Positions 1 through 50,200 of a DNA stretch of 64,000 bases are shown piece by piece. Origin of the DNA: a virus. How positions within the stretch are numbered: the stretch's first letter is position 1; each line of letters begins with the position of its first letter. Made by a program: the position numbers and the translations under genes. The notes under the pieces are model-generated. The model was not told the origin of the DNA. It ran no database searches and was given only the letters and a program-made list of their open reading frames with translations. The stretch lies in the IMG/VR virus record IMGVR_UViG_3300002462_000001. One strand, given 5' to 3'.

Positions 1-2389
1 CATCGCCAGCTTCGACTGTATCGCCCACCTTTACCTTGAGACTATGACTGTGAGGTACAATGTGCTCCTGACCATTAATAGTGACTATCTGATTCCCTAA
101 TTCGTCTGACTTGATCGACGTAACCTTACCGTCATCCTGAGCATGCTCGGCACCCTCCCAATGCTTCGGCGATTGAAGCATGTTGTTGATCGCTTTAAAA
201 CCTAATACGCCTTTTGACGTACCCCCATAAACACCGCCACTGTTATGCGTAATCAAACCGTTAGCCAATACGTAGCAATGTGTGTGATTATCAATTTCGA
301 TATCATACACGCGTAATGCACCCACTGGCTTTGATTCTACAAGCCTATAAATACGCTTATTGCTAGACATTTTAACCGACGCATCCGAAATAAACGTCTT
401 CAACTTTTCACGCTTCACACCATATAAAGGTATCTCATTGTAAAACACTGCAATGTCTTTCTGTTTACGAATATAAATAGAATAAAACGTGCGTTTTCCA
501 CCTGAATTAGTCTCGTAAACTTTACTGCTATGAATACCAAAACGCAACTCTAGCAACTTACGCACCTGTCGGACCATCTGCTCAGATGTCGAACCAAAAG
601 ATAACTCTAAATTCTTTGACTTAGTAACACAGACACAACCATCAGTTACCCACAAACCGCCTATAAGAGCAGCTATGGATCTTTTGTCCCACTCACTAAC
701 ACACTCTGGTATAAATTTTTCATATGACTTCGCACCATATAACCGCAACTCCTTTAACCATGCTCTTATCGGGTTACGCTCGGATGACACAACTTGACCA
801 GTTTGTGGGCACCGATCCGTAATACTGTTAAATAAACGTGAAATGCGATAATACCCGTAATGATCAGTTAGCTCCGTGATTTTCATGCCCAGCGTATACA
901 TATAAGCTTGTAACTGAGGAACCAAAGTATCATCATGGCACGAAAAATATACGCCGTTAACACTTCGAACAAAGCAACCGTCACCCAGCAGTAAACCTAA
1001 CAATAACGCTCTTGGCTCATTAATTCCTACAAAATCCGATACGCCATCAACCGACAATACAGAGTATTCATCGCAAGGCAGGCCGATACACAAAGACTTA
1101 TTACGAACGTAATCTTTATTGGATTTTTTCGAATAACGTGCAATACGGGCATAAAAACGGTGCTGATCTGTACAGACAGCTCTGACAGTTTGCTGCGTCT
1201 TATCTACCTGAAAAATATACTCATTACAATCTTGAACACCGTTATCAAAAACACTCTTTACTAATGCAGGTTTTGCAATACGGTACTGTGTAATACCTAA
1301 AACATAATCACCTGGCTTAATTTGCTCTATAGGTTTTTCAGAGAAATCTGCCATTCTAACTAAAGTACCTTCAGCTAGGCAGTGCTTGGACGAAAGTAAA
1401 GACTGACTAATAGGCTCTGATAACGCCTGTGCTGCTGTCATAGATGGGTTCTCCCCTGACACATACAGCCTACCGCGCTCTCCCATACCTACGTCTTTTG
1501 CATACAGCGAACCATCTCCAGGTCCACCTACCATAGGCGACCGAACAAGAATATCTTTGACTTTCTTTCGCTGTAAATCCTTCAGTACAGAATCCGTTAT
1601 AAGAGTATTCCTCTTATAGCCGCCAACATCATGTGCAAGATAACGACCTATGTTATCGTTGTCGTCTGTTTCAGACGGCAATCCTAAATTAGCCTTTAAT
1701 TTATAGTCGGCAGGATAATCATCACCGGAAATAACACCTCGGTGTGCAACTTGAGCCAGCTGCTTACTCATGAAGCCGCCATCACTTACAGCGAGTTTGA
1801 CATCCACTACACCACGACGCGCACCAAACGAACCAGCCCAATACTCAAATGGATTAAGACCCTCAGAGTAGTTATGTAATACAGGAAACGGTATAGGTCT
1901 ATCATTACCGCCCTCATACAAACCATCAAAACCCACACCCGCTGACAATGCAATAGGATTTCCTTTTGCACCTGACCTAATCATTAACGCAGCCGGATGC
2001 TCATCGTCAGTTAATTTTTCATATAACTCCTCACGCATCTTCTCAGTCGCAGACATCGTAACATCCATCACCATGTCATCCTTCTGCTGCGGAGTCAAAT
2101 CATCATTATCGTAGATCGACTTAAGTTTGGCCTGTAATTTTGCGCGGTGCTTCTTAGTTATTTCAGGTGTTGCCAGTAAATCACTAGCTAAACTATATCC
2201 GCCTGAACGCTGTGCAAACTGTGCGCCCATACGACCCAACTTACCAAGTATCTCCTGATACTTGTCAGGGTCATTGTTTGCAATGTCAGATAATAACTTC
2301 TTCAATCCTTTCTTATCAAGTACCCGGCTGGGGTCACGATAAGCCGGCGGAAGTTCACTGTTTATTAAGATAGATCCTACTGTTGCCAT
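1..2389 (-). CDS. rpoC: RNA polymerase beta' subunit, C-terminal half (RpoC2-like), intein-containing; runs off the window start
   Basis: Hand-translated (absent from ORF track): MATVGSILINSELPP...GLNPFEYWAGSFGARRGVVDVKLAVSDGGFMSKQLAQVAHRG (bridge helix) ...TAAQALSEPISQSLLSSKH|intein|SGGVYGG (trigger loop, cf. [21 protein letters not shown]). Confidence 0.93.
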   Translation of the reverse strand, partial: MATVGSILINSELPPAYRDPSRVLDKKGLKKLLSDIANNDPDKYQEILGKLGRMGAQFAQRSGGYSLASDLLATPEITKKHRAKLQAKLKSIYDNDDLTPQQKDDMVMDVTMSATEKMREELYEKLTDDEHPAALMIRSGAKGNPIALSAGVGFDGLYEGGNDRPIPFPVLHNYSEGLNPFEYWAGSFGARRGVVDVKLAVSDGGFMSKQLAQVAHRGVISGDDYPADYKLKANLGLPSETDDNDNIGRYLAHDVGGYKRNTLITDSVLKDLQRKKVKDILVRSPMVGGPGDGSLYAKDVGMGERGRLYVSGENPSMTAAQALSEPISQSLLSSKHCLAEGTLVRMADFSEKPIEQIKPGDYVLGITQYRIAKPALVKSVFDNGVQDCNEYIFQVDKTQQTVRAVCTDQHRFYARIARYSKKSNKDYVRNKSLCIGLPCDEYSVLSVDGVSDFVGINEPRALLLGLLLGDGCFVRSVNGVYFSCHDDTLVPQLQAYMYTLGMKITELTDHYGYYRISRLFNSITDRCPQTGQVVSSERNPIRAWLKELRLYGAKSYEKFIPECVSEWDKRSIAALIGGLWVTDGCVCVTKSKNLELSFGSTSEQMVRQVRKLLELRFGIHSSKVYETNSGGKRTFYSIYIRKQKDIAVFYNEIPLYGVKREKLKTFISDASVKMSSNKRIYRLVESKPVGALRVYDIEIDNHTHCYVLANGLITHNSGGVYGGTSKGVLGFKAINNMLQSPKHWEGAEHAQDDGKVTSIKSDELGNQIVTINGQEHIVPHSHSLKVKVGDTVEAGD
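242..1381 (-). mobile_element. LAGLIDADG-type intein (380 aa) in the beta' trigger loop
   Basis: Starts CLAEGTLVRMAD, ends CYVLANGLITHN followed by +1 Ser; blocks LLLGLLLGDGC and LIGGLWVTDGC; in frame with ATG 2389. Confidence 0.93.
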
Positions 2390-2396
2390 GAATTTT

Positions 2397-2433
2397 ATTA
2401 TAGCCAGAATCGGTCTGACCATTGTGCTATAAT
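2397..2433. promoter_or_regulatory. Back-to-back -10 promoter pair ATTATAGC-N21-GCTATAAT (copy 1)
   Basis: Each TATAAT lies 7 nt from an ATG (2389 minus, 2441 plus). Confidence 0.75.
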
Positions 2434-6637: not shown

Positions 6638-8686
6638 CTACTTTTTCAAAAGCTCATAACTTATCTTACCCGCATCATAAATACGATACCAACCAAGACA
6701 CTCAGTCATCTCCTTCTCAGTCCAATCTCTGGACTCAGGAGGTAAAAACTCTCCAAAATTTTGACGAATTTTTTTCTTTGTAAAATTAAAACGGTAGTAT
6801 CTACGACCAGTATCAAATCCGACGTGAACCATATCTGTCCAATACCAATAAGCCGGTTCTACAATACCATATGATTGAAAGCCGTGATTTAAATAAATGT
6901 TATTATTTGGGTCAACCCATCTTAAATCAGCATAACTGTATAGCCTGTTGGTCATTGTCAATAAATAATTAACCAGCTTAGTAAACGCACCTGGAACAGA
7001 TTTTGTAATATCTGTTGCGAATCTACTAATCTCCAGCCCTTCTTGCGGACTACTTCCCTCCCTTGATAGCTGAGATTTATTAACAGTGACTACGGCCACT
7101 GGCATATCCGCATAAAACAAACCAATATGCCGCCCGCGACAAAACCCCTGAATATGATTTTTAACCATAAATCCACGAGCTATGCTCGGCTCAACCGACT
7201 GAACTGCACACTTACGCGCGCCAACTACAGGTTTATCCGCCGAACCGCCAAAAATATGGCTCAACTTGTCAACTACAATATCTCTAGTAAACTCCCATTC
7301 GTCTTCAAATATCTGTATTAAACGAATTCCTGATTCCTGACAAGCTAGATACTTATTGTAATGATAATTTTGCTCCAATCGCGGACTACTGTGCCAAAAT
7401 AGCCCGTTAAATTCAATTGCTAATTTTTGTTCAGGATAATACAGATCTAATTCATGACCTTTTACAGCGTTTTTTATATTAGTATAATCTGTCGGAAAAA
7501 GAGAGCATAACTCTATTTCAGGTTGCGAACGAAAACGCTCAACATATTTATAAAAGTCTAACCTTTTGAGTAAAGCGCAAACATACGCATGTGAGTAATT
7601 AAGCATTTTGGCTACCTCAAACGAAGTAGGCTTTCTCTGCATTATCTCTTGAACACTTATTAAAAATCGCTCAAATAAATCTTCATCCTTTGTAACCAAT
7701 ATCTGCTGTTGACTTTTATCCTGCTGTTCATGGTGCTCAGCCCCATAACGCTCTAAACATGTTTGCCGAGCCTTACGGTTTACTGCTGGATTTAGTAATG
7801 AGCAACCAGCACCATAACGCTGCAAATTTGTCTGACGCACCTTTGACTTGATCGCACAACTTTGTGCGACATTCTCAACACCGTACCTTTCCTTGTTTGT
7901 TTGCTTACTTTTATCCTGAAATTCTTTTACTTGAAAAGCATTTTCAACACAGTAACGATGTAAATTTGTCTGCTTTATTTTATCCCTAATATCCGCACAG
8001 CGCATCGGATGATCAACACCATATTTTTTTTGAAATGTTTGTTTGATTTTTCTCTTTATGTGCGCAGACTGACAAATATGATCAACGCCATATCGTATTT
8101 GACACGTTTTTTTAGTCTTCTCTTTCATAATATCGGTTTGACAAAAATTCTCCTTTCCGTATTTTTTTAAACACGTTTTCCTACGTCCGGTCACAACCAA
8201 TTCACCGTCTTTAACTATACCGTGATATTTAGCACTTTTGCATACTGTTGACACTGATGTGTTAAGTATTGTTGCTACCTCACTAACAGATAGATTCTGA
8301 CGAATATAAAGATCATAAAGGTACTCTTTTGAAATAGCCTGGTAAAGTATTTCTTTTTTAATGTTGCGATATTCAAGCGCTCGCTGCACTACACAAGACG
8401 AAACACCCAATCGCTCTGCGATCTGCGCCTGCGATAAGTTTTCAGTAATATACAGATCATAGAGGTAATCCCTAGGTATTGTTTTATAAATAGCTGTATC
8501 CTTCTTCGAAATACCATGATAACAAAGAGCGGTCCTTAACACTTTACTTGAAATACCTAAATGCTTCAGGATTTGATTGCGTGGTAGACGTTGAGTTATG
8601 TACAGATCATACAAAAGATCTTTTGATACTGTCTTATACTTGGCCATAGCGTTTAACATACTGTGAAGTCTTTTTAAATTTTTCAA
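6638..8686 (-). CDS. Free-standing homing endonuclease, Hef/Vsr-like PD-(D/E)XK with repeated DNA-binding modules
   Basis: 3x YDLYI..LG.S..AL.YHGI HTH repeats, ~7x K.KQT..RYGV repeats, SQPEIEL..ELDLYYPEQKLAIEFNGLFWHS nuclease core, GNAT-like C-terminus. Confidence 0.8.
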   Translation of the reverse strand: MKNLKRLHSMLNAMAKYKTVSKDLLYDLYITQRLPRNQILKHLGISSKVLRTALCYHGISKKDTAIYKTIPRDYLYDLYITENLSQAQIAERLGVSSCVVQRALEYRNIKKEILYQAISKEYLYDLYIRQNLSVSEVATILNTSVSTVCKSAKYHGIVKDGELVVTGRRKTCLKKYGKENFCQTDIMKEKTKKTCQIRYGVDHICQSAHIKRKIKQTFQKKYGVDHPMRCADIRDKIKQTNLHRYCVENAFQVKEFQDKSKQTNKERYGVENVAQSCAIKSKVRQTNLQRYGAGCSLLNPAVNRKARQTCLERYGAEHHEQQDKSQQQILVTKDEDLFERFLISVQEIMQRKPTSFEVAKMLNYSHAYVCALLKRLDFYKYVERFRSQPEIELCSLFPTDYTNIKNAVKGHELDLYYPEQKLAIEFNGLFWHSSPRLEQNYHYNKYLACQESGIRLIQIFEDEWEFTRDIVVDKLSHIFGGSADKPVVGARKCAVQSVEPSIARGFMVKNHIQGFCRGRHIGLFYADMPVAVVTVNKSQLSREGSSPQEGLEISRFATDITKSVPGAFTKLVNYLLTMTNRLYSYADLRWVDPNNNIYLNHGFQSYGIVEPAYWYWTDMVHVGFDTGRRYYRFNFTKKKIRQNFGEFLPPESRDWTEKEMTECLGWYRIYDAGKISYELLKK

Positions 8687-8740: not shown

Positions 8741-11700
8741 TTATTTCTTTAAAATTTCAACCTCGTCTGACAAACTAACCTCGCCAGCCCTGTAAGCACG
8801 CTTCATATCCTCAACCGTCGCAAACACTTTCGCTCTACCTTTCTTCTTGCGAGTTCGCGACCCCTCGTAGAGACCTTGCTGCCAGTCCTCCAGAGCTGTA
8901 AACATCGGCTCCCTGTTCAACGGCGATAACAAATTTTGCGACGGAAGCATTAACCGCTTAGCCTCATCTACCGCCTCATCGCTGATTGGTACTTGAAAAT
9001 TAAGAGCGTCGCCGTCCGTGTCCATCGAGTACCCAGACGAAACATACTGATTCATATGCATAGCGTCCCCTTTTACCAACCTGGGCCATAGTGCCATAAT
9101 GCCGTATTTGTGTAAAACCGGACTACGATCTACGACTACGGGTCGTTCCTTTGTTGCCTGTAGCAACGCTTGTTTTGCACGCCTATCCTTACTATTGTAC
9201 ATGTCCTGCGCCTGCATCAATGGTACACCGCCGCGCACCAACTTACGGATAATAACCGGCTTGTAAATTTCATACGCCGAATTTATCGGAATGCCTACCT
9301 CATCCATATCAAGTTGCGGATTAATGGTAATAACGTTCCTGGCAACATTGTCCACACCGCCGCCCAGCAAACTTCGCTGCACCATTCCGTATTTGCTGCT
9401 CCCATCGCCGAATACATTTTTCAACAAACCGCTCACGCGCTTCTGTACCAACTTTGGATGAGTCGGATCCATTAACCCGGTAATCTGCTTGAAATAGTTA
9501 TACGACTGCAAATACTCCTCGCCAGCATCGCCAATCTGCCGCTCCAACTCCTTAACCGAATCGTTATGATCAATAAACTGCTTGTACAGGTAGTTCACAT
9601 CCGCAACAAGTGCCGTCTTGGAACCCGTCATCTCAGATACCGGCCGGAACTTCGGAGGAATAACAGGCACTCTGTCCAACATCCAATCCGCAGGTGTTAG
9701 CTTGTTGTCTTTAGCGGATTTGAGAAACTGCAGCCGTTTAATAGCTTCGTCGCGCTTAGTACCTCTTCCATCAGCAACAACAGCACGGGCACGCAATATC
9801 TCCTGATCTACGTTCACCGCTAAAAGCGCTTTCTGTATGGCCTGTGGCCCAGTACCGTGAACACCAATACTCTCACGACCAGCAATCACTGACTCCAACT
9901 TTGCTTGCGTAAGACCAAGAATACGCCGTGCAGGTTCCTCCATAACCGGATTTAGAACAGGCTGAGTAGGCTTAATATAACCCCACCGGTCGCCATACTC
10001 ACCAAAGATCTTCGGATCGAACAGCCCATTAGCTATGCCTTTTTTATCGCCTTCCCATTTAATGGTTTCACTATTTTTTACCTCACGATTACCGGCCAGT
10101 TCCTTAACGTCATCATTGGTAAGTGCCATCATTTTAAACTTACCCGCCTTCGGAACCACATGAATCCCTGAACCTTCCAAATGCGCCATGAACTTGTGGA
10201 ACATCTCAGGCTGTTCAGGCTCCGGTGGCGTATAACCTCGCATGAAACTGGCCCAAAAAAGATCATTTTTAGCCCCGCGTATCCTACGAGCGTCGGCAAG
10301 CACGTTATACGCACCGTGAGATACAAGAGCATTTGTGTGCATTAGCGCAACCCTCTTTGCACCATTTTCACCGCCAGATGCAGGTTGTCCATCTGCTGTA
10401 TACCGACCAAATGAACGCGAAGATTCTTTGCCCTCGGCACTATGATGCAATTTCTGGATGAACCCGTAGCCCCAACCTATTCCCTTACCATCAACGCCAG
10501 TAATTTGTTTACCGGTCTCTGGATCTGTAACAGCATCACGAATATTAATCCCGTGTTCCTTTGCCAATTTCATCACGTACTCAGCCGTATCTGGATTCTT
10601 CGGATCAAAAGACTCTATTTTTATAGGACGGCCTAACTTCTTCGCAATTCGACCAAGCACATGTTCATGGAGCATGGCATGGTTAACTCTTCCAATGTTG
10701 GATATTGGCGAAAAACAGATCATAGCCGGACCATCTGGAGTCATAGGCATCTGATCATCAGGCACTATCTCGTTTATAACGCCTTTGTTTCCGTATCTGT
10801 TCGAACATTTATCGCCGACGCGCATCGGCTGTAGCGACTTCACAATAACGTTAACTCCGTTCTTATCCGTATGTATTGCTGTAACTACTCCCGGATCCTC
10901 GTTATCCCACTCAAGCGCACTGTTCATCAGTGAATTAGCGCCCTTGCGGTGTATGCGGTCAACCGGTTTCGTGTTAACATCCGCCTTAAGAACAAGCGGA
11001 TCGCCTTGACTCACCTTTGTACCAACTTTGACAATACCGTTATCATCAATCGTCTCCAACTGATCCTTATCGTAAATACCTGGAAACGCACCAATGAACG
11101 TGTTCTTACCTTGCTTTATATTGTCAGTCCAATCTATGCGGTGCTGATACGCATGCTGACTCTTCATCCTGTCAGCAAACGATTGACTAATCACAATACC
11201 GTCCATCGTGTTAGAGCCGCGCCACGGCATAACAACCGCTCGAGCGTTCAACCCCTGCGCTAACGCACCTGTATCATCAGTAAAATTAGACTTAGCAAGA
11301 ACCTGACCCTTTGTTATACGCTGTCCAGGCTGCACTAATGGAGAGTGCGATACAACCGTCTTACGGTTCGTAGGACTATCCTTAATCATCGGATATGTCT
11401 TTTCACCGTCGGCCGTATCAACCACAATAGAATCATCCGTAACACGTTTAACAACACCATCCGCTTTAGAGTTCACCGTTGCAAATCTGCCCACACGGTC
11501 TTCATAAGACTCATCCTCAGTACCTGGTACTTTCGATTGAACAAGAGGTGCTTCGCCGCCTTCCAAAGGAAGCGACTGAGTAAGCATACGAGCCGCCATT
11601 GCTACACGCTGACCTTTAACACTCCCAATCATAGGTATCAGATTGGACAAAGCGTTATAAGCACCTTGCGCATTAGGCATTATGTAGTCAATCTGATCCC

Positions 11701-13147
11701 GCTTAATGCCCATTCGTGGCTGCCTGTCGCTGTCAAATGCCGCAATTCTAGGCGCATCGCTGTCCCACTCCGACTGAAGCGTAAGACGAGACTTGGCTAA
11801 CTCCACAGGATTCTTGTACTCCTGCTTACCTGTTTTAGCGTTGATTACCGGTACATACAAATCGCCAGTTGAACTCTTAAGAGCACTGCTGCTGATGTAC
11901 GTGTCAACACCGGCACGTAACGATTCAGGTGTCTGCAAAGGATCAATAAACCCAAACATCGTGTTGTTTACTTCCCTCGCTGAATCCGGAATTGCTGACA
12001 CATCGCCGATCGCACCGCTGCCCATTCGAGTAACGCTAAACAGCTTACTGTACATGTCATACGGGTTTATCTCTTCAGCAGGTGAAGCCAGACCGCTCTG
12101 AGTAATAACCGCATTAAGCTGCTTCGTAAGAAGTCCAGGAGGTATCTTACTGAGGTCAGGATTATTCTTAGAGAGAAAAGTTAATTTATTAAGAGCCTGC
12201 CTTCTGACCCTGCCGTCATCTAGCTTGAGACGCTCTGCAAATAAATCCTCAGGTCCCATAAACCGTTGAAACTGCATAGCGTCTCTGTTGTCGCTATCCA
12301 CCTCTCCTCTGGCCAGCCGCATCAATTTAGACGAAGCAGCAATAACATGCCGCTTGTCAAATACATCGTCGTCAATATCTAAATTCGTTCGGCTAACCTC
12401 ACGGGCAAACTTTATCGCCTTAGCCTGCTCCTGTATCCGCTGACGCATTATTTCATCGCTATCCTTGTCGCCAGGCCTATGATATTGCTTCCTGACAAAC
12501 CTGTCGTAAAGCTTCTTCATGTTCATATCCTTTGCCTGCGCTTTGTTTATGTCCAACACACGCTTTCCCCACGCAGCCTCTAACTCCTCGTCAGTAGCGC
12601 CCATCGCGTTGAGAAAGGTGTAAAGCGGGATGTGGTTCTTACTAATCTCCATGCTAAACTTACCAGTCTTCGGGTCAAACTGATAAGCGTGAGTAGGACC
12701 TTCATGCGAAGCCGCATTAACATTGGAAATGAACTCTCCGTTCTCCTTCATTCGAGTGTAAATACCATTCTTCAACCGTTGCTGGCTCTTTATATAGTAC
12801 ATCGTACCGTTATCCATAATACCGCCGTTTGGCAATACATACGGAACATGAGCCAAGAGTTTTTTGGAGCGTTGAATCGGCTTCCCAGTCTGCGTATCAG
12901 ACAGAGTCCATACACCATGCAACTTACGCGTTAAAGACTTCTGCTGAAGACGAGCCTGGTGTATGTCGTGAGCGTTATACTCCGGAGAATCGCCCCAACT
13001 CACGTCAGAAATACTCAAAGTATAACGGTTGTTCTGAGCCGGAGGTAAATTGCTCGCAGTGTCAAAGACCGACGAAAATACGGCTTCACGAAGAGCGTCA
13101 GTGTCGTCGAAAGCCCTAAGCTTTAATTGAGGAGGAGGTGTAGACAT
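8741..13147 (-). CDS. rpoBC: Fused RNA polymerase beta + beta' N-terminal half (catalytic subunit)
   Basis: beta motifs FGFIDPLQTPE, GDKCSNRYGNKGVI, FIQKLHH, PEMFHKFM; beta' motifs GLFDPKIFG, VPVIPPKFRP, DRSPVLHK, YSMDTDGD, MLPSQNLLSP. Confidence 0.96.
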   Translation of the reverse strand: MSTPPPQLKLRAFDDTDALREAVFSSVFDTASNLPPAQNNRYTLSISDVSWGDSPEYNAHDIHQARLQQKSLTRKLHGVWTLSDTQTGKPIQRSKKLLAHVPYVLPNGGIMDNGTMYYIKSQQRLKNGIYTRMKENGEFISNVNAASHEGPTHAYQFDPKTGKFSMEISKNHIPLYTFLNAMGATDEELEAAWGKRVLDINKAQAKDMNMKKLYDRFVRKQYHRPGDKDSDEIMRQRIQEQAKAIKFAREVSRTNLDIDDDVFDKRHVIAASSKLMRLARGEVDSDNRDAMQFQRFMGPEDLFAERLKLDDGRVRRQALNKLTFLSKNNPDLSKIPPGLLTKQLNAVITQSGLASPAEEINPYDMYSKLFSVTRMGSGAIGDVSAIPDSAREVNNTMFGFIDPLQTPESLRAGVDTYISSSALKSSTGDLYVPVINAKTGKQEYKNPVELAKSRLTLQSEWDSDAPRIAAFDSDRQPRMGIKRDQIDYIMPNAQGAYNALSNLIPMIGSVKGQRVAMAARMLTQSLPLEGGEAPLVQSKVPGTEDESYEDRVGRFATVNSKADGVVKRVTDDSIVVDTADGEKTYPMIKDSPTNRKTVVSHSPLVQPGQRITKGQVLAKSNFTDDTGALAQGLNARAVVMPWRGSNTMDGIVISQSFADRMKSQHAYQHRIDWTDNIKQGKNTFIGAFPGIYDKDQLETIDDNGIVKVGTKVSQGDPLVLKADVNTKPVDRIHRKGANSLMNSALEWDNEDPGVVTAIHTDKNGVNVIVKSLQPMRVGDKCSNRYGNKGVINEIVPDDQMPMTPDGPAMICFSPISNIGRVNHAMLHEHVLGRIAKKLGRPIKIESFDPKNPDTAEYVMKLAKEHGINIRDAVTDPETGKQITGVDGKGIGWGYGFIQKLHHSAEGKESSRSFGRYTADGQPASGGENGAKRVALMHTNALVSHGAYNVLADARRIRGAKNDLFWASFMRGYTPPEPEQPEMFHKFMAHLEGSGIHVVPKAGKFKMMALTNDDVKELAGNREVKNSETIKWEGDKKGIANGLFDPKIFGEYGDRWGYIKPTQPVLNPVMEEPARRILGLTQAKLESVIAGRESIGVHGTGPQAIQKALLAVNVDQEILRARAVVADGRGTKRDEAIKRLQFLKSAKDNKLTPADWMLDRVPVIPPKFRPVSEMTGSKTALVADVNYLYKQFIDHNDSVKELERQIGDAGEEYLQSYNYFKQITGLMDPTHPKLVQKRVSGLLKNVFGDGSSKYGMVQRSLLGGGVDNVARNVITINPQLDMDEVGIPINSAYEIYKPVIIRKLVRGGVPLMQAQDMYNSKDRRAKQALLQATKERPVVVDRSPVLHKYGIMALWPRLVKGDAMHMNQYVSSGYSMDTDGDALNFQVPISDEAVDEAKRLMLPSQNLLSPLNREPMFTALEDWQQGLYEGSRTRKKKGRAKVFATVEDMKRAYRAGEVSLSDEVEILKK

Positions 13148-13154
13148 ACCTACA

Positions 13155-13191
13155 ATTATAGCCCGAATCGGTCTAGCACCTGTGCTATAAT
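13155..13191. promoter_or_regulatory. Back-to-back -10 promoter pair, copy 2
   Basis: ATTATAGC-N21-GCTATAAT; ATGs 7 nt (13147 minus) and 6 nt (13198 plus) away; shares GAATCGGTCT with copy 1. Confidence 0.8.
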
Positions 13192-13197
13192 GAAATT

Positions 13198-14265
13198 ATG
13201 AGTTACAAATGTGGTGGTTTTGATCTAGAGTTTCTGTCAAAATGTGTTTTGAAAAATCCAAAGTACCCACCTGGATACGTGCCTGGTGCGGGTATTGCTA
13301 AACTAGCCGGTGGTGTAATTATTCCAGGTATTGGATTTGTGCGATTGAACCCTGATTGCAACGAACGTCTTAAGAAAGCGGGCTATGTTCCTGGTGCGGG
13401 TATTGCTAAATTGGTGGCTGATTCACGTAACAAACAGTTGGAAAAGCTCGGTTTTATGCCGCTTGCTTTACGCGCTGGCGCTAGTCTTAAGACGTTATTG
13501 CCAACTATAAAAAAGAAACTTTTCACCTATAGAGGTCCTCAATTTGTAAAATCTCCGTTGGGACAGGCTGCCTTAGCTGGCGGTCTTGGAGCTGGAACTT
13601 TGGGCGGTAGCCTTTTAGGTGTTGATTATTTAAATCATGGGCCGCCACTTAGAGATTTAGCTGGCAGGCGTGCGGCTAACCCAGATGAAAACAATGCACA
13701 CTGGAGAAATGGAAAACCAATGAATATTAGTGGTTTAACGCCGCAACAGCGTGAAGATGCATATACATTGTTTGACGCGATGCATAACAACAAAAGAACA
13801 CAGCATCTGAGTTACCCGTCTATCCGCGTTAACCCAAAGCTACAGAATCCGCAATATAGCCCGTTATGGAACACAATACAGTTGCCCACAAAATCAAGTC
13901 TAAATGAGATGTTTCACGAAGGGGCGCACCGTACTACATACGGTACTACTTTTTGGAATCCGGTGAATAATATTCGGTTTCGTGGGCCAGGACTAAGGTT
14001 TTCGCAAAACTACCTACAGAATGAGTCTCGCACAGCAAGAGACCATTTCGAACTAAATCAACACGCACCAAAAAATCGCCAACTTACAGAAAAAGAGATT
14101 GCTGATTTTTGGAGAAATAATCTTACAGGGCATGCCAGTAACTACAAAGACTACAATCAGGTATGGAAAAAGTTCATGCGTAATCATAAACCATTCACGC
14201 AGTCAGATATGAATTCGAGCTTATGGTCACTACCGCAAACACTACCTGAGGGCTTTAATAATTAA
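13198..14265 (+). CDS. Cassette cargo protein B, putative zincin metallopeptidase domain
   Basis: Leader LKNPKYPPGYVPGAGIAKLA (partly duplicated), Gly-rich hydrophobic segment, NEMFHEGAH (HExxH) with downstream Glu (NESRT). Confidence 0.7.
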   Translation: MSYKCGGFDLEFLSKCVLKNPKYPPGYVPGAGIAKLAGGVIIPGIGFVRLNPDCNERLKKAGYVPGAGIAKLVADSRNKQLEKLGFMPLALRAGASLKTLLPTIKKKLFTYRGPQFVKSPLGQAALAGGLGAGTLGGSLLGVDYLNHGPPLRDLAGRRAANPDENNAHWRNGKPMNISGLTPQQREDAYTLFDAMHNNKRTQHLSYPSIRVNPKLQNPQYSPLWNTIQLPTKSSLNEMFHEGAHRTTYGTTFWNPVNNIRFRGPGLRFSQNYLQNESRTARDHFELNQHAPKNRQLTEKEIADFWRNNLTGHASNYKDYNQVWKKFMRNHKPFTQSDMNSSLWSLPQTLPEGFNN

Positions 14266-16406: not shown

Positions 16407-18416
16407 CTACAGCACCAGCGGAGCCTTCACAATAGGTTCAAAACTATCCCACTGCACCACCGGTGTTTCCGGTATGATGATTGCCGGATGTTTATATCTA
16501 GCAGCCGTAGATAAAAACTGCGTAAGAATCTGCTTATTCATCCACACACCATCCGACGGCGCATTGTACTTATCAGCGCCTTTGTATCTGGGACCATGAG
16601 AGTTAAGGAAAAACACATAGTCTTCGCCGCCGTCAAATACATACCCGCCAATCGAAGTTGAGTGATTCCACTTACCGGATAAAGTCGCTATACGCATACC
16701 GTTCTTACCGGCACATTTATCTGCAACCTTTGTTGTGTTACCGAGAAATAACGCAAGACCGGATTTACACACCTCAACCACTCTATCTACCATGTTATCC
16801 AAAGGCATAAAGCAAATACCGGACTGATGCTTTGCCGCCTCTTCATGGTAATCCATGTAGTCCTTCGGTACAGTTATGTTGTTCTCGCCGATAACGGACA
16901 TCGGGAAGTTGCCGATAACGTTTACTGCGTTGGAGACCGCCATTATTGAATTAGCAACTAAAACACCGTTCATAAAATAGCTATCAACACCCTCCGGAAC
17001 GATAGCGTAATTGTGCTCACTCCACTGTCGCTTATCGTCCGGCTCAGGATCAAGCACGGAGATCATATAAACTGGTTTTATACCTACAGGCTCAACTGAT
17101 ACAACTCTATGATTATTTTCAGCCAACTCTGACACAAAATTATCGTACGAACCAAAATTCTTGCATATGCGCTTTAATCTCGCAGCAAAACTATCAGTTT
17201 TTGACGACTTACCAGTTACTTTGGCAATAGCTGCTCTATACTTGCCTTCAGTAGAAATATCATAACCTAAATTTATTATTTTATACGCAGCATCCAATTG
17301 TTTTTGTTTAGATCGTAACAATCTATTTTGCCTATACGTCTCGGCAAAATCTGAATCAGTTGCTACGCGATGCCACATTTTTAAAACCGTGGAAGAACGT
17401 TTAGTACTACCTACATGACCTAAAAAATGCTCAGCTCTCGATACAATTTCTAAATTTTCCTCCAAGTTATTTAATCTATTCTCATCTTTATGATGTACTA
17501 CACCATCAGACAAATCAAAACCCATAACGTCTCCAAGCACTAATTGATGCATGTAGGCCTTACCTTTCTTTCTGTCATGCAATCCAACCCTGATATACCC
17601 GTCAGTATGTTTTGATGTTGACACCTGGAACAGACTCTGACCAACCTTTAAATTAACAGCATGAACAAATTCACCTGTTTTTAACATCATTGGATGATCG
17701 CACGAAAGCTCGAATACGCCTTTGTCTGTCGTTACCCGAACACACTCCTTCACGCCAGAATATGTGGCATACGCTTTTTTAGCCGCAACGCGCCCTAATC
17801 GCCTGGAATACGATAAAATAACAAACTCTTCTCCACTTAAAGCTAACTCGCCGGCTTTTTTAGCCCCAACTGAAGTATAAACCCGCTGATCAAACGTTAA
17901 ACACTGCCCGCCCTTATAACTCCCTTTCTTTGACCAGAGCCACGCAGCGGTAGGGTTGGCGGGGTTATATAGATGCGCCTGACCCAATGCAAGATTTATT
18001 AGCGTGGACATGTTGCTTGCGAATGCGGCCGAATGTCCTGAACACGTGGGACGACCCCCTTGCGAGAAAGCAAACTTATTACTCTTCTTAAACTGAATCG
18101 GCAAATGCGCTAACACATCCCAAGGAAGCCAACTATACCCCGCAGCATTAACACGAGCAAGTAATTCCTGCCTCTGTTTCAAGTATTTTTCAAACTCAGC
18201 ATCCCAAGCAAAGATCGGCATATCGCCGCCGCGCTCCCAGCCGGACATAGAGATTGTATCAGCACCCATAGACTCACAGAGCGCCTCGTCGTAGTCGTCG
18301 AACTCTACACACCCGTTAACGATGAGACCGTCCTCTATAAGATCATTCTGACTTCGGCGGCGAAGCGCCGCCTCGGACATCTCAATTTGCTGCCGCCGTC
18401 TTCTGAAAAGTGCCAT
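16407..18416 (-). CDS. Papain-like (C1-type) cysteine peptidase interrupted by an HNH intein
   Basis: SQGGRPTCSGHS (Gln/Cys), WNHSTSIGGY (His), FLNSHG (Asn). Confidence 0.8.
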   Translation of the reverse strand: MALFRRRRQQIEMSEAALRRRSQNDLIEDGLIVNGCVEFDDYDEALCESMGADTISMSGWERGGDMPIFAWDAEFEKYLKQRQELLARVNAAGYSWLPWDVLAHLPIQFKKSNKFAFSQGGRPTCSGHSAAFASNMSTLINLALGQAHLYNPANPTAAWLWSKKGSYKGGQCLTFDQRVYTSVGAKKAGELALSGEEFVILSYSRRLGRVAAKKAYATYSGVKECVRVTTDKGVFELSCDHPMMLKTGEFVHAVNLKVGQSLFQVSTSKHTDGYIRVGLHDRKKGKAYMHQLVLGDVMGFDLSDGVVHHKDENRLNNLEENLEIVSRAEHFLGHVGSTKRSSTVLKMWHRVATDSDFAETYRQNRLLRSKQKQLDAAYKIINLGYDISTEGKYRAAIAKVTGKSSKTDSFAARLKRICKNFGSYDNFVSELAENNHRVVSVEPVGIKPVYMISVLDPEPDDKRQWSEHNYAIVPEGVDSYFMNGVLVANSIMAVSNAVNVIGNFPMSVIGENNITVPKDYMDYHEEAAKHQSGICFMPLDNMVDRVVEVCKSGLALFLGNTTKVADKCAGKNGMRIATLSGKWNHSTSIGGYVFDGGEDYVFFLNSHGPRYKGADKYNAPSDGVWMNKQILTQFLSTAARYKHPAIIIPETPVVQWDSFEPIVKAPLVL
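16950..17903 (-). mobile_element. Intein (318 aa) with HNH endonuclease
   Basis: GGQ|CLTFDQRVYT...CDHPM...VHHKDENRLNNLEENL...NGVLVAN|S. Confidence 0.88.
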
Positions 18417-29026: not shown

Positions 29027-30276
29027 TTGACATACTCCACACCCTAAATGGCGGGGATTCCTTGTGCTTCCACAGACCGCCTTGCTTTACGCAAGGTCTT
29101 ACGTTGTGTATGTTTTACATCGCACAGAGAGGCAATGCCCTGCCTCTTTATGTTGATTGCGGCATTTACATCACGGTCATGGTTGACTCCGCAACACGGA
29201 CAAGTCCATGACCTTTCACTTTTGAGTAGTTTTCTGTCCAACTTCTTCTCGCATGCAGAGCAAATATGACTAGACGCATAAAATCTAACTACTTTGACAA
29301 CTCTAGTATCGTACTTCGTTGCGATATACTGCAACTTCTGGATGAATGAACCAAGTGCCAAATCAGAGACCTTACGACCCCAAAGTCTTATCCATCCTTT
29401 CAAACACAAATCTTCAATACAGATGACATCGTAGGATTTGCACAACTCGTGGGCTAACTTCCACTGCCAATCCTCTCTCTGGCAAGAGATATGATAATGA
29501 AAATTATTGAGGTGTTTCCTCGCTCTGCGCCTATTATTACTACCTTTCTGCTTTTTGGAAAGTCTCTTCGATAAACTTCTATATTTATCGACCTGTTGGA
29601 ATAAAAATCGTGGTGATGCGATAGTCTCACCTGTATCTTTCGTTGCAAAGGTTATCAATCCAAAGTCTAAACCAACCGTCCCATTACAGGCTCGTGAAAG
29701 TTTCTTTGGCTGAATATCGCAACTCATACAGATGAAGTATCTATCACCACTTTTCTTAACTACTATTTGTTTGACATTATAATATTCACAGGATTTGTGA
29801 AACCTGAATGTACCCACTTTGTTTATCTGGAATTTATTATCTTCCAGTTTGAAACCTGATTGGGTAAACCGGATTGAACCACCTTGTCTAATCTTCTTGA
29901 ACTTTGGGGGTGCTTTCTGTAACTTATTGAAGAATCTTTGGTAAGATTCGTCAAGTTTCTGTACTACACCTTGCACAGTTTGACTGTTGAGCTTCATCCA
30001 ATAAGAATTGCGTTTCCTTTTCTTAGCGATAAACTTCTGCAGCTGACTAACACTCAGATATTTACCGTAGATTCGATAGGATAGTTTCTGAATGGTCAAA
30101 GCATAATTCCAAATATAGTTAGACGTAACAATTAACTCACCGAGCCGGCTGTTACGCTTATTCTTATGATAGAGTTTATACTTGAAATTTTGCATACAAC
30201 GATTATACCTTAAATTGATTTCGGCAACGCACCTTATATCTAGTAGTCTAAAGTCTATAAATTTACGGTGCTTTTG
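29027..30276 (-). mobile_element. IS200/IS605-family (IS1341-like) tnpB-only element
   Basis: Left-end motif upstream of tnpB; right end GAATCCCCGCCATTTAGGGTGTGGAGTATGTCAA. Left boundary approximate. Confidence 0.85.
29044..30195 (-). CDS. tnpB: RNA-guided endonuclease TnpB
   Basis: HTH N-terminus, VGLDFG, ICIEDL, CSAC/CPCC Zn ribbon, HDRDVNAAINI: RuvC D-E-D intact. Confidence 0.95.
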   Translation of the reverse strand: MQNFKYKLYHKNKRNSRLGELIVTSNYIWNYALTIQKLSYRIYGKYLSVSQLQKFIAKKRKRNSYWMKLNSQTVQGVVQKLDESYQRFFNKLQKAPPKFKKIRQGGSIRFTQSGFKLEDNKFQINKVGTFRFHKSCEYYNVKQIVVKKSGDRYFICMSCDIQPKKLSRACNGTVGLDFGLITFATKDTGETIASPRFLFQQVDKYRSLSKRLSKKQKGSNNRRRARKHLNNFHYHISCQREDWQWKLAHELCKSYDVICIEDLCLKGWIRLWGRKVSDLALGSFIQKLQYIATKYDTRVVKVVRFYASSHICSACEKKLDRKLLKSERSWTCPCCGVNHDRDVNAAINIKRQGIASLCDVKHTQRKTLRKARRSVEAQGIPAI

Positions 30277-33790: not shown

Positions 33791-34951
33791 CTATTCAAAA
33801 CCAAAAAATCTAGCCAAGGAACTCTTAATCGTCGGCTCCTCTACCTTCATATCAACATTACCGACTCTGGACAACTTGTCAAACACCGCTTTATTGGGCT
33901 TCAACCCACCAAGAGCAACATACACACGCATCGAATCAGGCTTTGCCTCGTTCACATACACAGCAGGATGCAAAAGCATGTCCTTCTGTTTGCTGCTGTT
34001 ACGCAACAAATCCAACCCGCCCATCAACTCCTCAGTACTAAATGTGTTGAGCACGTTCTCACCAGCAACCACAATACATACTCCCTGCGTTGCCTTGCTA
34101 ATGTCTACGTCCGCCAAAGTTGCCGATTGGAAGGTGTCCATAATCGCCCTAGCAACTACATCACTTCCTTCTTCCCAGTTAGAAACGCCGGAAACACCGA
34201 AAGTAATCATGCCGCTATCCAACAACTGACTCAAATCAGAACTGTCGAATGTCTGCTCAGACGGCATTGCAGCCATCGTATTAAACGCATGAAGCAGATT
34301 AGCCACACCTTTATTAGCATCAGAATTACGCTTTGCGTAACTGGAGTTATGAATCTTGGCGACACGGGCGTTATCGATAATAACCATCGGAGTAGGATTA
34401 AGCACCAAAAACTCAGCATACGCATAAATAGCATTTTTCGCTACACGGCTCCCTTCTTGCTCCATCGGCAAGGATAGAATACATCCTATCTTGGCGTTCA
34501 TGCCCTTAGACTCGATGTACTCCTGCAAATACTTGAAAATAACCGGACCCATTCCAGAACCAGTACCGCCTCCAAGACCAGCACAGATGAATACATACTC
34601 AAAGTCAGTACCCAAAATCTCCTCAATATATCTGAGCAGCTGTACCCTAGTTGAGGGCTTCAAAACACATTCTCGTGCCTTGGACGGGTCTTTACCAGCT
34701 CCGCCAATACTAAGATCTACAAAATCAAGATCAGCAGAAAGACCTTTGCGATCCTGCTCGCAGGTGTTGGCCGCCATAGCTCGGCGGTAGCCCTTCTTGA
34801 AGAACTCATCGACTATCCTGCCGCCGGCAGCCCCACACCCTATAAACGCAAACTTCTTCGCAACAGGCTCCGAAAACTCGTCTGCCAGATTTAGCTCCTT
34901 TGAATCCTCTACCGGATGTACCTCTAAAACTTCTTCGTCAAAAATGGACAT
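33791..34951 (-). CDS. Tubulin/FtsZ-family GTPase (PhuZ/TubZ/CetZ-like)
   Basis: FIGCGAAGGRI, AGLGGGTGSG signature, T7-like FDSSDL. Confidence 0.92.
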   Translation of the reverse strand: MSIFDEEVLEVHPVEDSKELNLADEFSEPVAKKFAFIGCGAAGGRIVDEFFKKGYRRAMAANTCEQDRKGLSADLDFVDLSIGGAGKDPSKARECVLKPSTRVQLLRYIEEILGTDFEYVFICAGLGGGTGSGMGPVIFKYLQEYIESKGMNAKIGCILSLPMEQEGSRVAKNAIYAYAEFLVLNPTPMVIIDNARVAKIHNSSYAKRNSDANKGVANLLHAFNTMAAMPSEQTFDSSDLSQLLDSGMITFGVSGVSNWEEGSDVVARAIMDTFQSATLADVDISKATQGVCIVVAGENVLNTFSTEELMGGLDLLRNSSKQKDMLLHPAVYVNEAKPDSMRVYVALGGLKPNKAVFDKLSRVGNVDMKVEEPTIKSSLARFFGFE

Positions 34952-50184: not shown

Positions 50185-50200
50185 TTTCTACTGTGTAGTT
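49939..50200 (-). ncRNA. omegaRNA (scaffold 50184-49939 plus ~16 nt 5' guide from the flank)
   Basis: Typical motifs ACTACGTT, ATAGGTAC..GGATGC..CTAGTCC, GGTTAAA, AAACC, AACATTATCGAAG. Confidence 0.85.

What the first reader, a model, noticed from the sequence alone, without database searches (positions are those of the whole stretch)
8741..13147. Unusual RNA polymerase: beta fused to beta'-N, SMDTDGD catalytic loop, both zinc sites lost
Seen: one 1468 aa chain runs from beta motifs into beta' and ends shortly after the catalytic region. The remainder of beta' is a separate gene ~6.3 kb away. The universal NADFDGD is YSMDTDGD (three Asp kept). The N-terminal beta' zinc-binding domain is deleted (GLFDPKIFG-EYG-DRWGYI). 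In the beta'-C gene the second-site cysteines are also absent (GDDYPA; VRSPMVGGPGDGSLYAKDVG). Established: bacterial beta' has two Cys4 Zn sites; cyanobacteria split beta' at a similar point; Helicobacter and Wolbachia fuse full beta-beta'; phiKZ-type enzymes split both subunits. Inference: this combination marks a distinct, minimal, zinc-free phage RNAP lineage; no alpha or sigma gene was seen in the window.
Basis: partly seen in the sequence, partly recalled or inferred. Interest (0 to 1): 0.75.

Follow-up and report, generated by a model that had tools for sequence, protein, structure and literature searches.

The report
Zinc-free, cysteine-free phage RNA polymerase
An uncultured ~187 kb phage encodes a bacterial-type RNA polymerase in two chains (beta joined to the first half of beta', the second half 6.3 kb away and interrupted by an intein) that has lost both zinc sites and nearly all cysteines; the layout is shared by a large phage family that no paper I could find describes.

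Summary
The ORF at 8741-13147(-) is a 1468 aa chain: a full beta joined almost seamlessly to beta'-N. The catalytic loop reads YSMDTDGD and the N-terminal zinc-binding domain is deleted. The rest of beta' starts at 2389(-) and lacks the four cysteines of the second zinc site.

- A 380 aa LAGLIDADG intein sits in the trigger loop of beta'-C.
- The whole 2120 aa enzyme has only 2 cysteines.
- The layout is not unique. More than 300 IMG/VR contigs carry it, as do Salmonella phage Arash and Vibrio phages D69/D181/D148.

Loss of the first zinc site is family-wide. Loss of the second defines a large uncultured subclade: all 120 best beta'-C homologues lack it, while Arash and D69 keep it. In the catalytic loop only DxDGD is invariant; SMDTDGD was seen only here.

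The window has no sigma gene. However, the closest relative and a complete genome of the clade encode a divergent sigma-70-like factor. No alpha subunit was found.

A tree places the single-chain beta-beta' fusions basally and the split forms as one clade.

This scan found the same layout before on other DNA (e1-5349171). Verdict: a real, probably active enzyme, and a new variant of a known kind.

The parts
8741..13147 (-). Gene for the 1468 aa beta to beta'-N fusion chain (P0001)
   Evidence: The ORF is intact. Pfam finds Rpb2_2/3/6 plus Rpb1_1/2. PDB phmmer aligns it to beta and then to beta'. It is 75% identical to P0005 and 41-44% identical to dozens of same-length metagenome proteins.
10139..13147 (-). 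Beta module (residues ~1-1003)
   Evidence: It aligns to Thermus beta 99-1097. The end of beta (…HKFMAHLEGSGIHVV) runs after about 4 residues into the start of beta' (KFKMMALTNDDVKE…).
8744..10138 (-). Beta'-N module (residues ~1004-1468): clamp, clamp helices and the double-psi beta-barrel with the Mg loop. It ends at about E. coli beta' 553.
   Evidence: Residues 1099-1464 align to E. coli beta' 180-549. The AF2 model has mean pLDDT 83, and its best PDB matches are cyanobacterial gamma and bacterial beta' (E 2e-32).
9974..10027 (-). Site of the deleted N-terminal zinc-binding domain (GLFDPKIFGEYGDRWGYI)
   Evidence: Alignment with Salmonella and three other bacterial beta' chains shows a gap of about 31 residues covering all four Cys. 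The same gap is present in all 39 family members aligned.
9008..9031 (-). Catalytic loop YSMDTDGD (the three Asp and the Gly are kept; N, A and F are replaced)
   Evidence: D1376, D1378, G1379 and D1380 are invariant in alignment A1.
13145..13160 (-). TATAAT 7 nt before the ATG of the fusion gene (promoter-like, leaderless start), with a divergent twin at 13186-13200(+)
   Evidence: there are 9 such sites in the window against 3.55 expected, and none of 100 shuffles reaches 9.
2..2389 (-). Beta'-C gene, which runs off the window. The full product is P0124, 1032 aa: a 652 aa extein plus a 380 aa intein.
   Evidence: Pfam finds Rpb1_5 and Rpb1_4. P0124 is 100% identical and begins at the ATG at 2389. 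The bridge helix and trigger loop align to bacterial beta'. The AF2 model has pLDDT 75 and matches E. coli beta' at E 1.5e-20.
1709..1726 (-). GDDYPA, at the position of second-site ligand C814 (bacterial DCGT)
1487..1546 (-). VRSPMVGGPGDGSLYAKDVG, at the positions of second-site ligands C888, C895 and C898
   Evidence: Model pLDDT is 80-93 over this region.
242..1381 (-). LAGLIDADG intein of 380 aa inserted in the trigger loop, directly after the conserved His (…LLSSKH|C…THN|SGG…)
   Evidence: Pfam finds LAGLIDADG_3 (E 1e-20) and Hom_end_hint. The boundaries are Cys1, a C-terminal His-Asn and a +1 Ser. Intein-free homologues read straight through.
2387..2402 (-). TATAAT 7 nt before the ATG of beta'-C (leaderless start)
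6638..8686 (-). Free-standing homing endonuclease gene directly downstream of the fusion gene. It is part of the variable 6.3 kb filling between the two RNAP genes.
   Evidence: It matches phrog_3339 'homing endonuclease' at E 5e-102 and DUF7487. Relatives have other filling of 0.9-7.5 kb.

Best explanation
These are the two catalytic-core genes of a phage-encoded, bacterial-type multisubunit RNA polymerase. Chain 1 is a complete beta covalently joined to beta'-N (clamp, clamp helices, Mg-binding barrel). Chain 2 is beta'-C (bridge helix, trigger loop, jaw/cleft) and becomes functional only after a LAGLIDADG intein splices out of the trigger loop.

The covalent beta to beta' join most likely does the assembly job that the alpha dimer does in cells; this is inferred. 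No alpha is encoded in relatives. Promoter recognition is most likely supplied by a divergent phage sigma-70-like factor encoded outside this 64 kb window. This too is inferred, from the closest relative and from a complete genome of the clade.

The enzyme belongs to a large phage family in which a single-chain beta-beta' ancestor was cut once after the barrel domain. Within that family it sits in a big uncultured subclade that has lost the second zinc site as well as the first, and has purged cysteine from the whole enzyme. The three Mg-binding Asp and all other invariant catalytic residues are kept, so I take it to be an active RNA polymerase.

Its role is open. It may be packaged in the virion for early transcription, as the proteome of the distant relative Arash suggests, or made after infection for middle or late genes. 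I put virion packaging at about 40%.
For: Shown:
- Domain content and order, with a seamless junction.
- DxDGD, R(425) and H(430) equivalents, and 86 other columns are invariant across 29 family members.
- The bridge helix and the trigger-loop His are aligned.
- The pieces fold like beta'.
- There is strong protein-level constraint against L006: pN 0.20 versus pS 0.86, which is saturated.
- The same two-gene layout, on the same strand, occurs in 68 of 80 IMG/VR loci, in Arash and in D69.
- The intein has canonical boundaries, and intein-free homologues exist.
- With a Salmonella outgroup, the single-chain fusions are basal and the split forms are one clade (SH-aLRT 100).
- The N-terminal zinc domain is absent in all members. 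The second site is absent in 120 of 120 closest beta'-C homologues and present in Arash, D69 and the full fusions.
- The enzyme has 2 Cys in 2120 aa, against 1.85% Cys in 50 other ORFs of the window (binomial P 5e-15). Relatives have 0-1 Cys.
- Sigma-like proteins in G001 and G003 hit Sigma70_r3 at 35.6 and 38.3 bits (cut-off 25.3), with weak r4 hits, and are 30% identical to each other.
- RNA_pol_L (alpha) is absent from 5 relatives' genomes while all 14 control genomes are positive.
- In Arash virions, gp206 and gp216 are among the most abundant proteins (PMC10585845).
Against: - No activity, zinc content or assembly has been measured for any member.
- The window's own sigma-like gene was not seen; only 64 of about 187 kb are available.
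- The N of NADFDGD, which is otherwise universal in cellular enzymes, is replaced, and the window and P0005 sit on a long branch (0.95).
- The evidence for virion packaging comes from a relative that is only 28% identical and that keeps the second zinc site.
- The tree has a single, long-branched outgroup.
- Both RNAP genes carry host-like TATAAT starts, which fits synthesis after infection by a sigma-70-type holoenzyme.
Confidence: 0.8

Rival explanations
1. The phage core enzyme borrows host factors (host sigma-70, perhaps host alpha) instead of a phage sigma. The TATAAT starts in the window would then be its own promoters.
For: No sigma gene is in the window. Nine TATAAT-N5-8-ATG sites occur against 3.55 expected. 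The clamp-helix coiled coil that binds sigma region 2 is predicted to be intact (helices 199-221 and 226-239 of the model).
Against: The closest relative's contig and a complete genome of the clade each encode a sigma-70-like protein, and so do Arash and D69. The window covers only a third of the genome. Host identity is unknown.
Confidence: 0.15
2. The enzyme is not packaged. It is made after infection from host-type promoters and transcribes middle or late genes, in the manner of the non-virion RNAPs of phiKZ-type phages.
For: Both genes have sigma-70-like -10 boxes at leaderless starts. No portal or capsid gene was recognised next to the RNAP genes in the window, unlike in Arash.
Against: In Arash the homologous chains are the top and fifth most abundant proteins in purified virions. 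The extreme lack of cysteine would suit a protein stored outside the cell. However, a small test on 27 other Arash proteins showed no general cysteine avoidance in virion proteins (0.70% versus 0.93%).
Confidence: 0.45
3. It is a decaying, catalytically dead relic. The altered Mg loop and lost zinc sites would be signs of relaxed selection.
For: SMDTDGD was seen only in this phage among 130 distinct family sequences. The pair of the window and P0005 sits on a long branch.
Against: Both ORFs are intact. The three Asp, the Gly and 86 other columns are invariant. pN is far below pS. The zinc-free state is shared by over 120 protein clusters from many contigs. The model is confidently folded at the former zinc site.
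Confidence: 0.04
4. The fusion is an assembly or gene-calling artefact.
For: None was found. Raw reads could not be checked because no sequencing run was listed.
Against: The same single ORF occurs in 309 IMG/VR loci, in over 100 protein clusters from independent projects, and in sequenced isolates. In Arash the fused protein was recovered with 100% peptide coverage.
Confidence: 0.01

Closest known systems
RNA polymerase of Salmonella phage Arash (gp206 + gp216, OQ632216; PMC10585845) and of Vibrio phages D69/D181/D148
   Same: It has a single beta to beta'-N chain (1525 and 1527 aa) and a separate beta'-C (606 and 609 aa) downstream on the same strand. The N-terminal zinc domain is deleted. 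The N of NADFDGD is replaced (AADYDGD). The beta to beta'-N chain is almost free of cysteine.
   Different: Identity is only 28%. The second zinc site is kept, and the four Cys of gp216 are exactly its ligands. A canonical Sigma70_r2 sigma is encoded nearby. There is no intein. The published paper annotates the genes only as beta and beta' and does not discuss the architecture.
Single-chain beta-beta' phage RNAPs from metagenomes (P0079, P0092-P0101, 2064-2296 aa)
   Same: They share the junction and the deletion of the N-terminal zinc domain, and they belong to the same family.
   Different: They are not cut after the barrel. They keep the second zinc site. They are basal in the tree.
phiKZ/AR9-type jumbo-phage multisubunit RNAPs (PMC7598289, PMC7618050)
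   Same: They are phage-encoded. Beta' is cut after the double-psi barrel. They have no alpha or omega. AR9 nvRNAP also lacks the N-terminal zinc domain.
   Different: In those enzymes beta is also split into 2-3 pieces and is not fused to beta'. No sigma homologue is known for them. phiKZ keeps the zinc domain and DFDGD. Sequence similarity to the window is only marginal (E 1e-9 to 1e-12).
mReC lineage (Weinheimer and Aylward 2020, PMC7481178)
   Same: It is an uncultured Caudovirales group with a deeply branching bacterial-like beta and beta'.
   Different: Its beta (1010 or 1364 aa) and beta' (904 or 1004 aa) are separate, adjacent, uncut genes. None of the contigs checked is shared. The paper does not mention fusion of the phage enzyme, a split, or zinc.
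Cyanobacterial and plastid split beta' (gamma / RpoC1 + RpoC2)
   Same: Beta' is cut in the same inter-domain region after the barrel. The cyanobacterial gamma chain is the best structural match of the beta'-N model.
   Different: The phage cut lies about 50-65 residues earlier: gamma runs about 64 residues past the end of the phage chain. Beta is not fused in cyanobacteria. Alpha, omega and the zinc sites are present there (established knowledge, not tested here).
Helicobacter and Wolbachia beta-beta' fusions
   Same: The C-terminus of beta is joined to the N-terminus of beta' in one polypeptide (established knowledge).
   Different: Those are full-length, uncut cellular enzymes with alpha, omega, sigma and zinc sites.

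Membership tests
Bacterial-type multisubunit RNAP (beta/beta' double-psi barrel enzymes) | Beta barrel domain (Rpb2_6) and beta' barrel domain (Rpb1_2) | tested here: met
   Pfam gives 145 bits and 74 bits, both above the cut-offs. PDB alignments agree.
Bacterial-type multisubunit RNAP (beta/beta' double-psi barrel enzymes) | Mg-binding Asp triad DxDGD | tested here: met
   D1376, D1378, G1379 and D1380 are invariant in the family.
Bacterial-type multisubunit RNAP (beta/beta' double-psi barrel enzymes) | Complete NADFDGD motif | tested here: not met
   The window has SMDTDGD. Among 130 distinct family sequences, GADFDGD occurs 58 times, NADFDGD 34 times, and 20 other variants 38 times in all.
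Bacterial-type multisubunit RNAP (beta/beta' double-psi barrel enzymes) | N-terminal beta' Cys4 zinc-binding domain ('shared by all msRNAPs', Lane and Darst as cited in PMC7618050) | tested here: not met
   There is a gap of about 31 residues and no Cys. P0001 has only C781 and C811, both in the beta part.
Bacterial-type multisubunit RNAP (beta/beta' double-psi barrel enzymes) | Second beta' Cys4 zinc site (E. coli C814/C888/C895/C898) | tested here: not met
   The positions read Y, G and alignment gaps. The beta'-C extein has no Cys at all.
Bacterial-type multisubunit RNAP (beta/beta' double-psi barrel enzymes) | Bridge helix and trigger loop with a catalytic His | tested here: met
   GARRGVVDVKLAVSDGGFMSKQL aligns to the bridge helix. 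…SSKH aligns to MRTFH, with the intein directly after the His.
Bacterial-type multisubunit RNAP (beta/beta' double-psi barrel enzymes) | Alpha-dimer assembly platform | tested here: not met
   RNA_pol_L was not found in Arash, D69 or three IMG/VR genomes (one of them 100% complete), while all 14 controls were positive. It was also not found in the window. The window's whole genome is not available.
Bacterial-type multisubunit RNAP (beta/beta' double-psi barrel enzymes) | Sigma-70-family initiation factor | tested here: inconclusive
   None is in the 64 kb window. A divergent one is present in the closest relative's contig and in a complete clade genome.
Arash-type 'fused, then split' phage RNAP | One ORF of ~1440-1540 aa holding beta plus beta'-N, ending after the barrel | tested here: met
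   The window's chain is 1468 aa and aligns end to end with Arash gp206 (97% coverage) and with over 60 proteins of the same length.
Arash-type 'fused, then split' phage RNAP | Separate beta'-C gene downstream on the same strand | tested here: met
   It lies 6.35 kb downstream. In relatives the distance is 0.6-7.5 kb, with a mode of ~1.05 kb.
Arash-type 'fused, then split' phage RNAP | Presence in the virion | not testable with these tools
   This is known only for Arash.
phiKZ/AR9-type split RNAP | Beta split into two or three polypeptides, with no beta-beta' fusion | tested here: not met
   Beta is intact and fused.
mReC RNAP (Weinheimer and Aylward 2020) | Separate, uncut beta and beta' genes of ~1000-1365 and ~900-1005 aa | tested here: not met
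   The paper's Supplementary Data 2 lists separate proteins. Here the genes are fused and cut.
Class 1 intein with LAGLIDADG homing endonuclease | Cys1, a C-terminal His-Asn, a +1 Ser/Thr/Cys, and an endonuclease domain | tested here: met
   The boundaries read C|LAEGTLV … ITHN|S. LAGLIDADG_3 hits at E 1e-20. Splicing itself was not tested.

The most novel reading that the evidence does not exclude
The enzyme has been rebuilt to work without zinc and without cysteine because it spends part of its life outside the cytoplasm. On this reading it is stored in the capsid and delivered through the tail, and a metal-free, thiol-free fold survives oxidation and can refold on arrival. It would be the first multisubunit RNA polymerase with no structural metal site at all, working as a two-chain core plus a phage sigma.
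Probability: 0.25. Interest if true: 0.8.

Novelty: new variant of a known kind. Interest (0 to 1): 0.62.

Why it matters
Structural zinc in beta' is treated as a universal feature of multisubunit RNA polymerases, and NADFDGD as a universal motif. Here a large natural family keeps only DxDGD. A big subclade of it dispenses with both zinc sites, nearly all cysteines and the alpha platform, yet is under strong purifying selection.

That gives natural answers to several questions:
- What the zinc sites and the Asn of the Mg loop are really needed for.
- How a beta to beta' tether can replace alpha in assembly.
- How RNAP genes get re-partitioned: single chain, then two pieces, then three pieces.

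Cultured relatives exist (Arash, Vibrio D69), so the architecture is open to experiment. The zinc-free subclade itself has no isolate in the phage collection searched.

Tried and rejected
- Megablast of the gene against 50,697 phage records found no match.
- The search for related loci with the single protein found no match; an alignment was needed.
- No sequencing run was listed for the gene, so the junction could not be checked on reads and nothing can be said on expression.
- The 515 aa gene right after the RNAP gene in L005 was tested as a possible beta'-C. It is an unrelated Gly-rich protein.
- The Pro/Ala-rich 243 aa ORF that sits between the two RNAP genes in most relatives was tested as a possible third subunit or sigma. 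It has no Pfam hit and no homologue in the window.
- Equating the family with mReC was rejected, because mReC has separate uncut genes.
- I briefly read LHK as a change of beta' R425. That was a numbering slip: R425 (the R of …RSP…) and H430 are invariant, and only R431 varies.
- 'Virion proteins avoid cysteine' was tested on 27 Arash proteins next to the RNAP genes. The result was 0.70% versus 0.93% Cys, no clear difference, so the cysteine purge is not explained by that rule.
- Literature searches found no paper describing the fused-and-split layout or a zinc-free multisubunit RNAP. The library does not hold most subscription journals.
- No complex prediction was run.

Full report
**What is there**

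The minus-strand ORF at 8741-13147 is intact and encodes 1468 aa. Pfam places beta domains (Rpb2_2, Rpb2_3, and Rpb2_6 at E 3.6e-42) in residues 126-923. It places beta' domains (Rpb1_1, and Rpb1_2 at E 2e-20) in residues 1145-1401 of the same chain. Against all PDB sequences, residues ~60-1000 align with full-length bacterial beta, and residues 1099-1464 align with E. coli beta' 180-549.

The join is nearly seamless. The last helix of beta (…HKFMAHLEGSGIHVV) is followed after about four residues by the first strand of beta' (KFKMMALTNDDVKE…). An AF2 model of residues 985-1468 has mean pLDDT 83. Its best structural matches are the cyanobacterial gamma chain and bacterial beta' (E about 1e-32). 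The model contains the clamp-helix coiled coil.

The rest of beta' is the minus-strand gene that runs off the left end of the window. The ATG at 2389 is the likely start: the record's own 1032 aa protein P0124 begins there, as do its homologues. That places it 6352 bp downstream of the first gene. P0124 consists of a 652 aa extein and a 380 aa LAGLIDADG intein at 242-1381. The intein is inserted directly after the trigger-loop His (…LLSSKH|C…THN|SGG…), with canonical Cys1, His-Asn and +1 Ser.

**The three motif claims**

All three hold.
- The Mg loop is YSMDTDGD (residues 1373-1380).
- GLFDPKIFGEYGDRWGYI spans the place where bacterial beta' has about 31 more residues carrying the four Cys of the N-terminal zinc-binding domain.
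- In beta'-C, GDDYPA and VRSPMVGGPGDGSLYAKDVG occupy the positions of C814, C888, C895 and C898.

The point can be made more strongly. The fusion chain has two cysteines in 1468 residues (C781 and C811, both in beta), and the beta'-C extein has none. The intein, by contrast, has 12 Cys, and 50 other ORFs of the window average 1.85% Cys (binomial P about 5e-15). Relatives have 0-1 Cys per chain. In Arash the four Cys of gp216 are exactly the ligands of the second zinc site. So the loss of the zinc sites is part of a general purge of cysteine from this enzyme.

**It is a family, not a one-off**

A tblastn search of the phage collection finds the same single ORF in Salmonella phage Arash (gp206, 1525 aa) and in Vibrio phages D69, D181 and D148. 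Each has a separate beta'-C (606-609 aa) further downstream and a sigma gene nearby.

The protein collection holds over 100 clusters of the same architecture at 29-75% identity. Many carry inteins. A set of 2064-2296 aa proteins are complete beta-beta' fusions. IMG/VR holds 309 loci. In 68 of the 80 kept, beta'-C lies downstream on the same strand, 0.94-7.5 kb away and most often ~1.05 kb away, with a Pro/Ala-rich ORF in between. Complete genomes are about 180-230 kb, one of them with terminal repeats.

In species genomes the family appears only on contigs binned into unrelated MAGs (Gemmataceae, Nanopelagicales, Lentisphaera, Thermoplasmata and others). This looks like mis-binned phage DNA and gives no host. 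These results dispose of the assembly-artefact reading. In Arash the fused protein was also recovered with 100% peptide coverage.

**What is shared and what is special**

- The N-terminal zinc domain is missing in every member aligned, including the single-chain fusions, Arash and D69.
- The second site is intact in the full fusions, Arash and D69. It is absent in the window and in all 120 best beta'-C homologues at 42% identity or more. The fully zinc-free state therefore marks a large uncultured subclade.
- In the Mg loop only DxDGD is fixed. Among 130 distinct sequences, GADFDGD occurs 58 times, NADFDGD 34 times, and 20 other variants make up the rest. SMDTDGD occurs only here, and even 75%-identical relatives read AGDLDGD, GADLDGD or GADNDGD. 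Arash and D69 read AADYDGD.

The Asn that is universal in cellular enzymes is thus dispensable in this family. The equivalents of R425 and H430 are invariant.

**Direction of evolution**

I built a tree of 41 sequences over 1460 columns with Salmonella beta plus beta'-N as outgroup. The single-chain fusions form a basal grade. All cut forms form one clade (SH-aLRT 100) in which P0069, Arash and D69 together are sister to the rest. The window and P0005 sit on a long branch inside the crown. The simplest reading is fusion first, one cut after the barrel, and later loss of the second zinc site.

There are caveats: one long-branched outgroup, a quick search, and several long branches.

The cut lies at about E. 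coli beta' 553/570. This is about 50-65 residues before the cyanobacterial gamma/beta' cut, in the same linker after the barrel. It is also where phiKZ-type enzymes are cut (PMC7598289). A nested group (P0077-P0084) has cut beta as well, giving beta-C to beta'-N chains of ~1140-1220 aa.

**Partners**

No sigma or alpha is in the window. This rests on Pfam scans of 44 ORFs and on phmmer with four phage sigmas against all 310 frames.

Arash and D69 have a canonical Sigma70_r2 protein. The closest relative's contig (G001, whose RNAP is 75% identical) and a complete genome of the clade (G003) each encode a 245-280 aa protein. These two proteins hit Sigma70_r3 above the curated cut-off (35.6 and 38.3 bits against 25.3), show weak region 4 hits, and are 30% identical to each other at E 1e-36. 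A phage sigma-like factor is therefore likely for this phage too, encoded outside the window.

RNA_pol_L (alpha) was found in none of five relatives, while all 14 control genomes were positive.

**Expression signals**

Both RNAP genes start 6-7 nt after a TATAAT with no Shine-Dalgarno sequence (13145-13160 and 2387-2402). There are nine such sites in the window against 3.55 expected, and no shuffle reaches nine. This matches another first-stage note on this window (e1-5353378). It leaves open which polymerase reads these starts.

**Function**

I take this to be an active RNAP core for four reasons.
- The ORFs are intact.
- The catalytic residues are invariant.
- pN is 0.20 against a saturated pS of 0.86 in comparison with L006.
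- The model is confident (pLDDT 80-93) across the former second zinc site.

The covalent tether probably replaces alpha in assembly; this is an inference. In Arash, gp206 and gp216 are among the most abundant proteins of purified virions, together with a sigma (gp10) and the helicase gp217 (PMC10585845). A virion-delivered enzyme is therefore plausible. But that relative is only 28% identical, and the host-like starts of the window's genes fit synthesis after infection equally well. A small test of whether virion proteins in general avoid cysteine was negative (0.70% versus 0.93% Cys). The cysteine purge remains unexplained.

**Comparison with what is known**

- The mReC lineage of Weinheimer and Aylward has separate, uncut beta and beta' genes and is a different architecture.
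- phiKZ/AR9 enzymes split beta and have no known sigma. AR9 nvRNAP also lacks the N-terminal zinc domain, while phiKZ keeps it (PMC7618050).
- I found no paper describing the fused-and-cut layout or a multisubunit RNAP without any zinc site.
- This scan noted the same layout earlier on other DNA (e1-5349171, a termite-gut phage) and a single-chain form (e1-5325230). My independent results agree with both.

**Verdict**

This is a real, probably active enzyme. It is a new variant (zinc-free, cysteine-free, with the Mg loop relaxed to DxDGD, and interrupted by an intein) of a phage RNAP family that is widespread but undescribed.

Noticed in passing
window 242-1381(-); homologues P0126-P0128, P0131, P0205, P0211, P0212, P0224: The trigger-loop sequence …L SSKH SGG… is an intein hot spot. 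Homologues carry inteins in at least three registers within five residues: before SSKH, after the first S, and after the H. This suggests repeated independent invasions.
   Followed up: partly
window 8741-13147 and 2-2389; relatives P0005, P0011, P0014, P0130, P0135, P0167: Cysteine is almost completely absent from both RNAP chains across the clade (0-2 Cys per ~1470 aa, 0 per ~630 aa), although neighbouring genes have ~1.9% Cys. No explanation was established.
   Followed up: partly
P0077-P0084 (metagenome proteins, 1081-1224 aa): A nested subgroup has a three-piece partition. Its chain starts at the equivalent of residue ~485 of the window protein (beta-C half) and runs through beta'-N, with an insert of about 190 aa. 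Beta has therefore been cut there as well.
   Followed up: partly
window 16407-18416(-): This 669 aa ORF has an HNH endonuclease domain in its middle. Its C-terminal part is 52% identical to a ~340 aa protein encoded just upstream of the RNAP gene in the closest relative (L005 8408-9424). It is probably a second intein-bearing gene, and a 3.2 kb insertion separates it from the RNAP gene.
   Followed up: partly
window 33791-34951(-): A tubulin/FtsZ-family GTPase (Tubulin at E 8e-13, with weaker Tubulin_2 and TubZ-like_C matches), that is, a PhuZ/TubZ-like protein. This is notable in a phage that also encodes its own multisubunit RNAP.
   Followed up: no
window 29044-30195(-) and 48715-49938(-): A TnpB-like gene (OrfB_IS605 plus the Cas12f1-like TNB domain) and an IscB-like gene (RRXRR at E 2e-62 plus HNH). 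With the homing endonuclease and the inteins, the region is very rich in mobile elements.
   Followed up: no
window 50188-53247(-): A family A DNA polymerase of 1019 aa with an N-terminal uracil-DNA-glycosylase-superfamily domain.
   Followed up: no
L053 14362-15093 and the same position in 54 tblastn matches among the 80 IMG/VR loci: A conserved Pro/Ala-rich low-complexity ORF of about 243 aa sits between the two RNAP genes in most relatives. It has no Pfam hit and is absent from the window.
   Followed up: partly
window 13145-13200, 2387-2443, 19228, 25465, 26527, 30193, 59580: TATAAT sits 5-8 nt before an ATG without a ribosome-binding site (9 sites against 3.55 expected). Two of the sites form divergent pairs at the starts of the RNAP genes.
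   Followed up: partly
L100-L111 (species-genome collection): Family members occur only on contigs binned into MAGs of unrelated phyla, including an archaeon. This is probably mis-binned phage DNA and gives no usable host signal.
   Followed up: no
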